Positions 15,001-18,000 of a stretch of DNA of 64,000 nt are shown piece after piece; position 1 is the first letter of the stretch, and the number at the start of each line of letters is the position of its first letter. Position numbers: made by a program. Source of the stretch: Escherichia coli (lineage in GTDB: Bacteria; Pseudomonadota; Gammaproteobacteria; Enterobacterales; Enterobacteriaceae); assembly GCF_013315695.1 (NCBI RefSeq), contig NZ_CP054353.1; one strand, 5' to 3'.

Positions 15001-18000
15001 TGTATGAATCCCGCCTGAAGGGAAAGCTGCACGTAATCAGCAAGCGATATACGCAGCGAATTGAGCGGCATAACCTGAATCTGAGGCAGCACCTGGCACG
15101 GCTGGGACGGAAGTCGCTGTCGTTCTCAAAATCGGTGGAGCTGCATGACAAAGTCATCGGGCATTATCTGAACATAAAACACTATCAATAAGTTGGAGTC
15201 ATTACCGAAGAAGTCATTGGCAATAACATTGATATGCTGATTCCGCGGGATTTGCGTCCTGCGCATCCTGAATACATTCGTCATAACCGTGAAGGCGGTA
15301 AAGCGCGCGTCGAGGGGATGAGTCGGGAGCTGCAGCTGGAGAAAAAAGACGGCAGTAAAATCTGGACCCGTTTTGCGCTATCGAAAGTGAGCGCCGAGGG
15401 GAAAGTTTATTACCTGGCGCTGGTACGGGATGCCAGCGTAGAAATGGCGCAAAAAGAACAGACCCGACAATTGATTATTGCCGTTGACCATCTCGACCGA
15501 CCGGTGATTGTCCTCGATCCGGAACGCCATATTGTGCAGTGCAATCGCGCATTTACCGAAATGTTTGGTTACTGCATTAGCGAAGCCAGCGGTATGCAGC
15601 CCGATTCACTCCTTAACATTCCTGAATTCCCTGCCGATAACCGCATTCGTTTACAACAGTTGCTTTGGAAAACCGCCCGCGATCAGGACGAATTTCTGCT
15701 ATTGACGCGCACCGGTGAAAAAATCTGGATTAAAGCCTCTATCAGCCCGGTTTATGACGTGCTCGCGCATCTGCAGAACCTGGTAATGACCTTCTCGGAT
15801 ATCACCGAAGAACGGCAAATCCGCCAGCTTGAAGGCAATATTCTCGCCGCCATGTGCAGCAGCCCGCCATTTCATGAAATGGGGGAAATCATTTGTCGTA
15901 ACATCGAATCTGTACTCAACGAATCGCATGTTTCGCTGTTCGCGCTGCGCAACGGGATGCCGATACACTGGGCGTCATCTTCGCACGGTACAGAAGTTCA
16001 AAATGCGCAAAGCTGGTCAGCGACCATTCGTCAGCGTGATGGCGCGCCGGCGGGGATCCTGCAAATTAAAACCTCGTCAGGAGCAGAAACCAGCGCCTTT
16101 ATCGAACGCGTGGCAGATATCAGCCAGCATATGGCCGCGCTGGCGCTGGAACAGGAAAAAAGCCGTCAGCATATTGAACAACTCATCCAATTTGATCCGA
16201 TGACCGGTCTGCCAAATCGCAATAACCTGCACAATTACCTCGATGACCTGGTCGACAAAGCCGTCTCTCCGGTGGTGTATCTCATCGGTGTTGACCATAT
16301 TCAGGATGTGATTGATAGCCTTGGCTATGCGTGGGCCGATCAGGCATTGCTGGAAGTGGTCAATCGCTTTCGTGAAAAATTCAAACCGGATCAATATCTC
16401 TGTCGTATCGAAGGTACGCAGTTTGTCCTCGTGAGCCTCGAAAACGACGTCAGTAACATTACGCAGATCGCCGATGAGCTACGGAATGTGGTCAGCAAGC
16501 CGATAATGATTGACGATAAACCATTCCCGCTCACCTTGAGCATTGGCATCAGCTACGACGTGGGTAAAAACCGCGATTACCTGCTCTCCACTGCTCACAA
16601 TGCAATGGATTTTATTCGCAAAAATGGCGGTAACGGCTGGCAGTTCTTCAGCCCGGCGATGAACGAAATGGTAAAAGAGCGTTTGGTTTTAGGCGCGGCG
16701 CTGAAAGAAGCAATTAGCAATAACCAACTGAAACTGGTTTACCAGCCACAAATCTTCGCAGAAACGGGTGAACTGTACGGCATCGAAGCCCTTGCTCGCT
16801 GGCACGATCCCCTGCATGGTCATGTGCCCCCTTCACGGTTTATTCCTCTCGCAGAAGAGATCGGTGAAATAGAAAATATTGGACGCTGGGTCATCGCGGA
16901 AGCTTGTCGTCAGTTAGCAGAATGGCGTAGCCAGAATATTCATATCCCGGCGTTATCCGTTAACTTGTCGGCGTTGCACTTTCGCAGTAATCAGCTGCCT
17001 AATCAGGTGTCTGATGCAATGCAAGCCTGGGGTATTAACGGCCACCAGCTGACGGTGGAAATCACGGAAAGCATGATGATGGAACACGATACCGAAATCT
17101 TTAAACGCATTCAGATCCTGCGCGATATGGGCGTGGGTTTATCGGTAGATGATTTTGGCACGGGCTTTTCCGGATTATCCCGCTTAGTCAGTCTTCCAGT
17201 AACGGAAATCAAAATTGACAAAAGTTTTGTCGATCGTTGTCTGACCGAAAAACGCATCCTTGCCTTACTTGAAGCCATTACCAGCATTGGGCAAAGCCTT
17301 AATTTAACCGTCGTGGCGGAAGGCGTCGAAACCAAAGAGCAATTTGAGATGCTACGCAAGATCCACTGTCGCGTTATTCAGGGATATTTCTTTTCCCGCC
17401 CCCTACCCGCCGAAGAAATTCCAGGCTGGATGAGCAGTGTGTTACCGCTGAAAATCTGACAAATTCCTCTCGCCCGCACTCGCGGGTTTTCCTTTAACGT
17501 GACACTGTCACTTAAATACTGTGATTTCAGCTACGATTCCGGGAGATTCCTTCCTTAACTTCCCCTCTTGCACCAAAACTGCACTACGCTGCACAAATGT
17601 TGATCAAAAGTTAAAAAATATAACTTTAAGCCAGCATTCTGGCGCTTATCCCGGCATGGCATGAGATCTGCATAAGCGGAAAGCGCAGCAATTTTTGTCT
17701 TATACAGGAACCATTTATGTCGGATACCACCGAACTGGTTGATTTAGCCGTGATCTTCCCTGATCTGGAGATCGAACTGAAATACGCCTGCGCTGATAAC
17801 ATCACAGGTAAAGCTATTTATCAGCAAGCGCGTTGTCTGTTACACAAGGATGCGATTACCGCGCTGGCGAAAAGTATCAGTATCGCCCAGCTGTCAGGCT
17901 TACAACTGGTGATTTACGATGCGTATCGCCCACAACAAGCACAGGCGATGTTGTGGCAAGCCTGCCCAGACCCGCAATATGTTGTTGATGTGGCGGTCGG

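What the first reader, a model, noticed from the sequence alone, without database searches (positions are those of the whole stretch)
17657..17672. Candidate sigma-54 promoter for the ddp operon
TGGCAT-N5-CTGCA about 45 bp upstream of ddpX matches the -24/-12 consensus with correct GG-to-GC spacing. This fits the nitrogen-limitation control of the ddp operon that I recall from the literature.
Basis: partly seen in the sequence, partly recalled or inferred. Interest (0 to 1): 0.3.

Follow-up and report, generated by a model that had tools for sequence, protein, structure and literature searches.

The report
Known sigma-54 promoter of ddp operon

Summary
The window is E. coli. TGGCATGAGATCTGCA lies at 17657-17672 (+), with GG at 17658-59 and GC at 17670-71, 44 nt before the ddpX ATG (17717). 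On its own the motif is not rare: about 0.6 equally good sites are expected per 64 kb. It is nevertheless the best sigma-54 matrix hit in the window (15.9 bits; the median of 41 ChIP-bound promoters is 16.0). About 0.001 such hits are expected in this 257-nt spacer on the right strand.

The spacer differs from K-12 at 2 of 257 nt, neither in the promoter, so the K-12 experiments apply. The same motif was published as a sigma-54 promoter candidate in 2010. It lies under a sigma-54 ChIP-seq peak (2015) and an NtrC ChIP-seq peak in nitrogen-starved cells (2014). It binds RpoN holoenzyme and NtrC in vitro, and ddpX mRNA rises 104-fold on nitrogen depletion (2021).

Across Escherichia, the segment 17566-17716 is far more conserved than the rest of the spacer, and the 16-mer is invariant.

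Two points remain open. I found no mapped transcription start. There is also no canonical palindromic NtrC box, only three TGCAC half-sites centred at -106, -95 and -85.

Verdict: observation confirmed, interpretation supported, already known, low interest.

The parts
17656..17672 (+). Sigma-54 -24/-12 promoter element ATGGCATGAGATCTGCA, with GG at 17658-59 and GC at 17670-71.
   Evidence: Sequence read. It is the top matrix hit in the window at 15.9 bits. It is identical to the ChIP-seq motif OS16 and to the promoter listed by Zhao et al. 2010. The 16-mer is invariant in 8 Escherichia sequences. A 30-mer covering 17657-17686 is exact in 4132 of about 4215 E. coli genomes that carry the spacer.
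17682..17684 (+). Predicted transcription start, about 17683. This gives a 34-nt leader with the Shine-Dalgarno sequence AGGA at 17705-17708.
   Evidence: Inferred with the rule of PMC4591121, which places the start 19 nt after the motif centre. That table gives a distance of 34 for ddpX. No experimental mapping was found in the papers I could read.
17569..17606 (+). Probable NtrC enhancer. Three same-orientation TGCAC half-sites start at 17569, 17580 and 17590, spaced 11 and 10 bp. The overlapping 17-mers are centred at -106, -95 and -85.
   Evidence: There are 3 TGCAC copies against 0.17 expected in 257 nt, and the 17-mers match the NtrC box at 9-10 of 14 positions. The same scan recovers the known glnA, glnH, nac and astC sites at 10-13 of 14. 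Only 1 of 40 columns varies across Escherichia. The block CGCTGCACAnnTGTTGAT is shared with locus L039. Assigning it to NtrC is an inference; the dyad symmetry of canonical sites is missing.
17597..17629 (+). AT-rich stretch between the enhancer and the promoter. It contains the inverted repeat AAAGTTA-N7-TAACTTT and the palindrome TTGATCAA.
   Evidence: The 20-nt window starting at 17600 is 85% A+T, and no IHF consensus lies within 1 mismatch. A role in DNA bending is an inference only.
17717..23681 (+). The ddpXABCDF operon driven by the promoter: ddpX 17717-18298, followed by ddpA, ddpB, ddpC, ddpD and ddpF.
   Evidence: ORFs, RefSeq annotation of IAI39 and MS 21-1, and Pfam.
17472..17496 (+). 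dosP terminator-like hairpin GCCCGC-ACTC-GCGGGT followed by TTTTCCTTT. It separates dosP from the ddp promoter.
   Evidence: Detected in the terminator scan. It folds at -10.9 kcal/mol with z = -1.55, which is modest. The stem is conserved across Escherichia while its tail varies.

Best explanation
This is ddpXp, the sigma-54 (RpoN) promoter of the ddpXABCDF operon. RNA polymerase carrying sigma-54 binds the GG (17658-59) and GC (17670-71) elements and sits there as a closed complex. Under nitrogen limitation, phosphorylated NtrC binds upstream, contacts the polymerase by DNA looping and uses ATP to open the promoter. Transcription then starts near 17683 and runs into ddpX (D-Ala-D-Ala dipeptidase) and the dipeptide ABC transporter genes.

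Three things are shown: sigma-54 and NtrC occupy this region, the operon responds to rpoN, and it is strongly induced by nitrogen starvation. Three things are inferred: the exact start site, that NtrC's binding site is the TGCAC cluster at 17569-17606, and any role for the AT-rich stretch in bending.
For: - **Motif and position.** The motif and spacing are as described. It is the best matrix hit in the window, in the right orientation, 61 nt before the ATG.
- **Transfer from K-12.** The spacer is 99% identical to K-12 and the promoter itself is identical.
- **Sigma-54 binding in vivo.** A ChIP-seq peak is centred 4 bp from this motif (PMC4591121 Table 1, OS16).
- **rpoN dependence.** ddpX rises 2.7-fold on sigma-54 induction and falls 2.1-fold in an rpoN deletion, with this exact sequence listed as the promoter (PMC2831329).
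- **NtrC binding in vivo.** An NtrC ChIP-seq peak at 1561101-1561181 overlaps the promoter, as the peaks at glnA, astC, nac, glnH and rutA do (PMC4066584, compared).
- **In vitro binding and induction.** PMC8743547 reports a gSELEX peak for RpoN holoenzyme, gel shifts with NtrC, with holoenzyme and with both, and a 104.5-fold rise of ddpX mRNA on nitrogen depletion.
- **Conservation.** Columns 17566-17716 are 7.9% variable against 29.2% for 17460-17565 (Fisher P = 1.3e-5), and the 16-mer is invariant.
- **A distant relative.** A distant ddpX gene (L039, 67% protein identity) has CTGGCACAGACGCTGCA at -56 and shares an upstream block.
- **Alternatives not seen.** There is no sigma-70-like site in 17300-17800 and no Rfam family.
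Against: - I found no experimentally mapped transcription start. In 2015 EcoCyc still flagged the promoter as predicted.
- There is no canonical dyad-symmetric NtrC box. The best match is 10 of 14, and it lacks the GC...GC symmetry seen in the known sites.
- None of the passages mentioning ddpX in the gSELEX paper falls in the NtrC-alone binding-site table, which suggests no NtrC-alone peak above its cut-off. I did not read that table itself.
- The motif alone is expected about 0.6 times per 64 kb.
- ddpXA is also strongly RpoS-dependent in stationary phase (39- and 31-fold), so sigma-54 is not the only input.
- The site is not conserved outside Escherichia, because in most other genera ddpX sits inside a different operon.
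Confidence: 0.93

Rival explanations
1. The motif is a chance match with no promoter function.
For: The pattern is expected 0.54 times per window. Matrix hits this good are expected 0.63 times per 64 kb. Many sigma-54 sites predicted from sequence were not confirmed by ChIP-seq.
Against: Sigma-54 ChIP-seq, NtrC ChIP-seq, gSELEX and gel shifts all place the proteins here. Expression responds to rpoN and to nitrogen starvation. The 16-mer is invariant across Escherichia in an otherwise variable spacer.
Confidence: 0.02
2. The ddp operon is mainly expressed through RpoS in stationary phase. This would happen from an unrecognised sigma-S promoter in the spacer or by read-through from the upstream dosCP operon, with the sigma-54 site a minor input.
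For: ddpXA is 39- and 31-fold higher in wild type than in an rpoS mutant of EDL933 in stationary phase. From my own knowledge, not checked here, Lessard et al. 1998 reported RpoS-dependent DdpX expression and dosCP is RpoS-dependent. The dosP terminator hairpin is modest, at -10.9 kcal/mol with an interrupted T run. A weak -10-like TATAAC lies at 17619-17624 (read). astCADBE, another NtrC target, is listed with both RpoS and RpoN.
Against: No sigma-70-type promoter is found in 17300-17800. The 104-fold induction on nitrogen run-out and the rpoN effects are direct. The RpoS effect may be indirect. In this window IS1 has removed dosC and the dosCP promoter, so read-through from that promoter cannot operate in this strain. 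The two routes are not mutually exclusive; the confidence given is for RpoS control replacing sigma-54 control.
Confidence: 0.04
3. It is a real sigma-54 promoter, but its activator binding at the TGCAC repeats is an enhancer-binding protein other than NtrC, or NtrC acts from solution without a specific site.
For: No canonical NtrC palindrome is present. None of the passages mentioning ddpX in the gSELEX paper falls in the NtrC-alone table. The positions of the NtrC ChIP peaks are too coarse to place the binding site.
Against: An NtrC ChIP-seq peak is present under nitrogen starvation. NtrC alone shifts the ddpX probe. Brown et al. cite expression analysis for NtrC control of ddp. TGCAC is the NtrC half-site, and the cluster lies at the usual -85 to -106 distance.
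Confidence: 0.05

Closest known systems
ddpXp of E. coli K-12 MG1655 (b1488), the sigma-54/NtrC promoter of ddpXABCDF
   Same: The 17-mer is identical, its distance to the ATG is the same, and the spacer is 99% identical. This is the same element in another strain.
   Different: There are only two substitutions in the spacer, at 17492 and 17713. Upstream, IS1 has replaced dosC and the start of dosP in this strain.
glnAp2, the textbook NtrC-activated sigma-54 promoter
   Same: It has a -24/-12 element and an activator region about 100 nt upstream. It is induced by nitrogen limitation and carries both NtrC and sigma-54 ChIP peaks.
   Different: glnAp2 has two strong dyad-symmetric NtrC boxes, matching 13 and 12 of 14 at -140 and -108. 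ddpX has only three same-orientation half-sites, matching 9-10 of 14 at -106 to -85.
astCp, which has dual sigma-54/NtrC and RpoS control
   Same: It has a -12 element of the type CTGCA, it is an NtrC target, and it is strongly RpoS-dependent in stationary phase.
   Different: For astC, Brown et al. cite direct NtrC-binding evidence (Table 1), and the NtrC-box matches lie much further upstream, at -253 and -233. For ddpX the basis of the RpoS effect is unknown.

Membership tests
Sigma-54 (-24/-12) promoter | GG and GC dinucleotides exactly one helical turn apart, within TGGCAC-N5-TTGCW. | tested here: met
   TGGCAT-GAGAT-CTGCA has GG at 17658-59 and GC at 17670-71. The matrix score is 15.9 bits against a median of 16.0 for 41 bound sites.
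Sigma-54 (-24/-12) promoter | Intergenic position, oriented towards a gene, with a start a short distance before it. | tested here: met
   It is on the + strand in the 257-nt dosP-ddpX spacer. The predicted start is 34 nt before the ddpX ATG.
Sigma-54 (-24/-12) promoter | Bound by sigma-54 holoenzyme. | not testable with these tools
   This is published for the identical K-12 sequence: ChIP-seq OS16 with FAT 10, and a gSELEX peak and gel shift. Sequence identity to K-12 was checked here.
Sigma-54 (-24/-12) promoter | Transcription depends on rpoN. | not testable with these tools
   Published: ddpX rises 2.7-fold on sigma-54 induction and falls 2.1-fold in an rpoN deletion. The authors of PMC8743547 conclude that activation needs RpoN and NtrC.
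Sigma-54 (-24/-12) promoter | Transcription start mapped about 12 nt after the GC element. | not tested
   No primer extension, RACE or start-site data for ddpX appeared in the papers I could read. EcoCyc flagged the promoter as predicted in 2015.
NtrC (nitrogen-regulated) regulon | Induced by nitrogen limitation. | not testable with these tools
   Published: a 104.5-fold rise of ddpX mRNA on nitrogen depletion. Brown et al. cite earlier expression analysis.
NtrC (nitrogen-regulated) regulon | NtrC bound near the promoter. | not testable with these tools
   Published: an NtrC ChIP-seq peak with 24-fold enrichment and a gel shift with NtrC.
NtrC (nitrogen-regulated) regulon | Dyad-symmetric NtrC box TGCACCAnnnTGGTGCA about 80-250 nt upstream. 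| tested here: inconclusive
   Only three TGCAC half-sites are present, matching 9-10 of 14, and no right half-site is seen. Known sites at glnA, glnH, nac and astC score 10-13 of 14 with symmetry. The cluster is enriched (3 copies against 0.17 expected) and conserved.

The most novel reading that the evidence does not exclude
The enhancer of this promoter may be non-canonical. It would consist of three same-orientation TGCAC half-sites one helical turn apart, not dyad-symmetric NtrC boxes. Part of it (CGCTGCACAnnTGTTGAT) is kept with a sigma-54 element in front of a distant, single-gene ddpX in another Enterobacterales genome. If so, this would be an old, portable regulatory module with an unusual mode of NtrC binding, or a second protein would bind there.
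Probability: 0.25. Interest if true: 0.25.

Novelty: already known. Interest (0 to 1): 0.08.

Why it matters
The site links cell-wall dipeptide scavenging (D-Ala-D-Ala uptake and cleavage) to nitrogen starvation. That link and this very promoter sequence have been in the literature since 2000-2010 and were confirmed genome-wide in 2014-2021. The only small open points are the unmapped start site, the unusual layout of the activator sites, and how RpoS dependence is achieved.

Tried and rejected
- **Pattern statistics.** The bare pattern and the matrix score are not significant over 64 kb.
- **Other promoter types.** The sigma-70 scan of 17300-17800 found nothing.
- **RNA families.** The Rfam search of 17300-17900 gave only a meaningless snoRNA hit at E 0.34.
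- **IHF.** No site lies within 1 mismatch of WATCAANNNNTTR in 17540-17716.
- **Canonical NtrC box.** None was found, although the same scan recovers the known sites at six other promoters.
- **Conservation in other genera.** In about 60 of the 78 non-Escherichia ddpX loci the gene follows a same-strand ORF, usually of about 288 aa, by 8-54 bp, so no orthologous promoter exists. This agrees with the low scores in S5 Table of PMC4591121.
- **Other high-scoring sites.** Sites before ddpX in L046, L049 and L055 were not pursued, because they lie further upstream and overlap an inverted repeat.
- **Papers not available.** Zimmer et al. 2000 and Reitzer & Schneider 2001 could not be read. What I say about them and about Lessard et al. 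1998 rests on citations in other papers or on my own knowledge.
- **NtrC peak position.** The NtrC ChIP peak cannot locate the enhancer, because at glnA the reported peak also sits on the promoter and not on the known sites.

Full report
**Observation.** The window is Escherichia coli. The 401 bases around the finding are 100% identical to strain MS 21-1 and 99.8% identical to IAI39 and CE10. In all of them the flanking genes are annotated dosP and ddpX. At 17657-17672 (+) the sequence is TGGCATGAGATCTGCA. GG is at 17658-59 and GC at 17670-71, which is the spacing of TGGCAC-N5-TTGCW. The ddpX ATG is at 17717, and its product matches Pfam Peptidase_M15 (D-Ala-D-Ala dipeptidase) at E 6e-79.

**Chance.** The degenerate pattern occurs once in the window, but 0.54 matches are expected and 41 of 100 shuffles have at least one. 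I built a matrix from the 41 other intergenic, gene-oriented sigma-54 sites that ChIP-seq found in K-12, leaving ddpX out (list). The site scores 15.9 bits. That is the best score over all positions on both strands of the window, and typical of real sites, whose median is 16.0. Even so, simulated 64-kb sequences contain 0.63 sites this good. The motif alone therefore proves nothing. For the 257-nt spacer on the correct strand, only about 0.001 hits are expected.

**The promoter is already published.**
- Zhao, Liu and Burgess list ggcaTGGCATGAGATCTGCATAagcg at -60 to -43 of ddpX as a sigma-54 promoter. In their data ddpX rises 2.7-fold five minutes after sigma-54 induction and falls 2.1-fold in an rpoN deletion (PMC2831329).
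- Bonocora et al. report sigma-54 ChIP-seq peak OS16 with exactly ATGGCATGAGATCTGCA. The fold-above-threshold score is 10 and the predicted start lies 34 nt before ddpX. EcoCyc then flagged it as a predicted promoter (PMC4591121).
- Brown et al. find an NtrC ChIP-seq peak at ddpXABCDF in nitrogen-starved cells, with 24-fold enrichment (PMC4066584).
- Shimada et al. find a gSELEX peak for RpoN holoenzyme. They also show gel shifts of a ddpX probe by NtrC, by holoenzyme and by both together, and a 104.5-fold rise of ddpX mRNA on nitrogen depletion (PMC8743547).
- The window's dosP-ddpX spacer differs from K-12 at 2 of 257 positions (17492 and 17713), neither in the promoter. These results therefore transfer directly.

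**Conservation within Escherichia.** I aligned eight spacers, including two divergent Escherichia lineages. The dosP-proximal part (17460-17565) varies at 29.2% of columns. The part from the first TGCAC repeat to the ATG (17566-17716) varies at 7.9% (Fisher P = 1.3e-5).

I also searched 30-mers against 5,426 complete genomes. About 4,215 of these genomes carry the spacer.

| 30-mer | Region | Genomes with an exact match |
|---|---|---|
| 17657-17686 | promoter core and downstream | 4,132 |
| 17567-17596 | TGCAC repeats | 4,144 |
| 17539-17568 | control segment | 4,164 |
| 17650-17679 | promoter shifted 7 nt upstream | 3,884 |

The drop for 17650-17679 places a common variant in 17650-17656, just upstream of TGGCA.

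**Conservation outside Escherichia.** There is mostly nothing to compare. In about 60 of the 78 non-Escherichia loci holding a ddpX relative, the gene follows a same-strand ORF, usually of about 288 aa, by 8-54 bp, so it lies inside another operon. This agrees with the low conservation scores for OS16 in the published S5 Table.

One distant locus is informative. L039 is an Enterobacterales metagenome bin whose DdpX is 67% identical, and its ddpX stands alone. It has CTGGCACAGACGCTGCA starting at -56 from the ATG (15.5 bits) and shares the upstream block CGCTGCACAnnTGTTGAT...GTTAA with E. coli.

**Anatomy upstream.** A scan with TGCACCAnnnTGGTGCA recovers the known sites:
- glnA at -140 and -108 (13 and 12 of 14);
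- glnH at -121 and -108;
- nac at -152;
- astC at -253 and -233.

At ddpX it finds only three overlapping 9-10 of 14 matches, centred at -106, -95 and -85. Each has a good left half (TGCACCA, TGCACTA, TGCACAA) and no right half. In effect these are three same-orientation TGCAC repeats at 17569, 17580 and 17590, spaced 11 and 10 bp. Three copies are present against 0.17 expected in the spacer, and only 1 of 40 columns varies. This is the likely enhancer, but that is an inference.

None of the passages mentioning ddpX in the gSELEX paper falls in the NtrC-alone binding-site table. That would fit weak sites, but I did not read the table itself. The published NtrC ChIP peak cannot settle the position. 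Its 80-bp window sits on the promoter itself here, and also at glnA, astC, nac, glnH and rutA, where the true sites are known to lie further upstream.

Between the repeats and the promoter lies an AT-rich stretch (17597-17629, up to 85% A+T). It contains the inverted repeat AAAGTTA-N7-TAACTTT. No IHF consensus lies within one mismatch.

**Rivals.**
- A chance, non-functional match is excluded by the binding and expression data.
- No sigma-70-type promoter is found in 17300-17800, and no Rfam family matches.
- A real second input is RpoS. ddpXA is 39- and 31-fold higher in wild type than in an rpoS mutant of O157:H7 in stationary phase. That could be indirect, could come from an unrecognised start in the spacer, or could be read-through from dosCP across a modest terminator hairpin (-10.9 kcal/mol). 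It adds to the sigma-54 promoter and does not replace it. In this strain the dosCP promoter is gone (see below).

**What is not shown.** I found no mapped 5' end for ddpX in the papers available to me. The start near 17683 is the rule-based prediction of PMC4591121. [quoted passage not shown] Zimmer et al. 2000, Reitzer and Schneider 2001 and Lessard et al. 1998 could not be read.

**Verdict.** This is the known sigma-54/NtrC promoter ddpXp in another E. coli strain. Novelty: already known. Interest is low. The only mildly open points are the unmapped start, the half-site layout of the enhancer, and the route of RpoS control.

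Noticed in passing
window 14440-15207: A 768-bp IS1 copy (insA 14494-14769, insB 14688-15191) replaces 1,809 bp that are present in MS 21-1 and IAI39. 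The lost segment holds all of dosC and the first ~147 bp of dosP, leaving a truncated dosP ORF at 15234-17459 (741 aa). The oxygen-sensing DosC/DosP pair and its promoter are therefore disrupted in this strain.
   Followed up: yes
window 17539-23692; locus L003 6080-6145: About 22% of complete E. coli genomes lack the ddp operon together with its promoter: 5,390 genomes match the spacer but only 4,215 cover it. In strain MS20657 dosP is followed by osmC. The left junction falls after 17538, and a 61-bp remnant 79% identical to the interior of ddpF (23190-23251) remains. This points to an old deletion, not an insertion in the other strains.
   Followed up: partly
loci L006-L083, upstream of position 3001: In Citrobacter, Enterobacter, Serratia, Pantoea and others, the ddpX relative usually lies 8-54 bp behind a same-strand ORF of about 288 aa. 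The ddpX-first order with its own sigma-54 promoter is therefore essentially limited to Escherichia. I did not identify the upstream gene.
   Followed up: partly
locus L039 2800-3003: A single-gene ddpX (219 aa) in an Enterobacterales metagenome bin has a sigma-54-like CTGGCACAGACGCTGCA at -56. It also shares the block CGCTGCACAnnTGTTGAT...GTTAA with the E. coli spacer, although the remaining sequence does not align.
   Followed up: partly
window 17717-23681 (operon): The published RT-qPCR gives ddpX up 104.5-fold but ddpF, the last gene, up only 2.2-fold on nitrogen depletion. A separate study lists an internal RpoD promoter between ddpA and ddpB. The operon thus shows strong polarity, or the two ends are expressed separately.
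   Followed up: no
window 17499-17511: A perfect palindrome GTGACA-C-TGTCAC lies just after the dosP terminator, as part of an 11-nt inverted repeat (17494-17516). It is conserved in 7 of 8 Escherichia spacers (one strain has T to C at 17500) and is kept in strains that lack ddp. Its function is unknown.
   Followed up: no
window 17630-17644 and 17606-17627: Two short inverted repeats lie between the enhancer and the promoter: GCCAG-N5-CTGGC, centred near -46 from the predicted start, and AAAGTTA-N7-TAACTTT, centred near -66. Both are nearly invariant across Escherichia. No binding protein has been assigned.
   Followed up: no
window 29398-29414 (-): The second-best sigma-54 matrix hit in the window is ATGGGACGCATTTTGCA (13.8 bits). 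It lies inside a minus-strand ORF (28914-29609). Neither the motif nor fdnG, fdnH or fdnI appears in the main text of the ChIP-seq paper. It is probably chance.
   Followed up: partly
window 18481-18517: Relative to the window and IAI39, strain MS 21-1 lacks 46 bp inside ddpA, which is annotated there as frameshifted. The window's ddpA aligns with IAI39's intact gene without a gap at this point.
   Followed up: no
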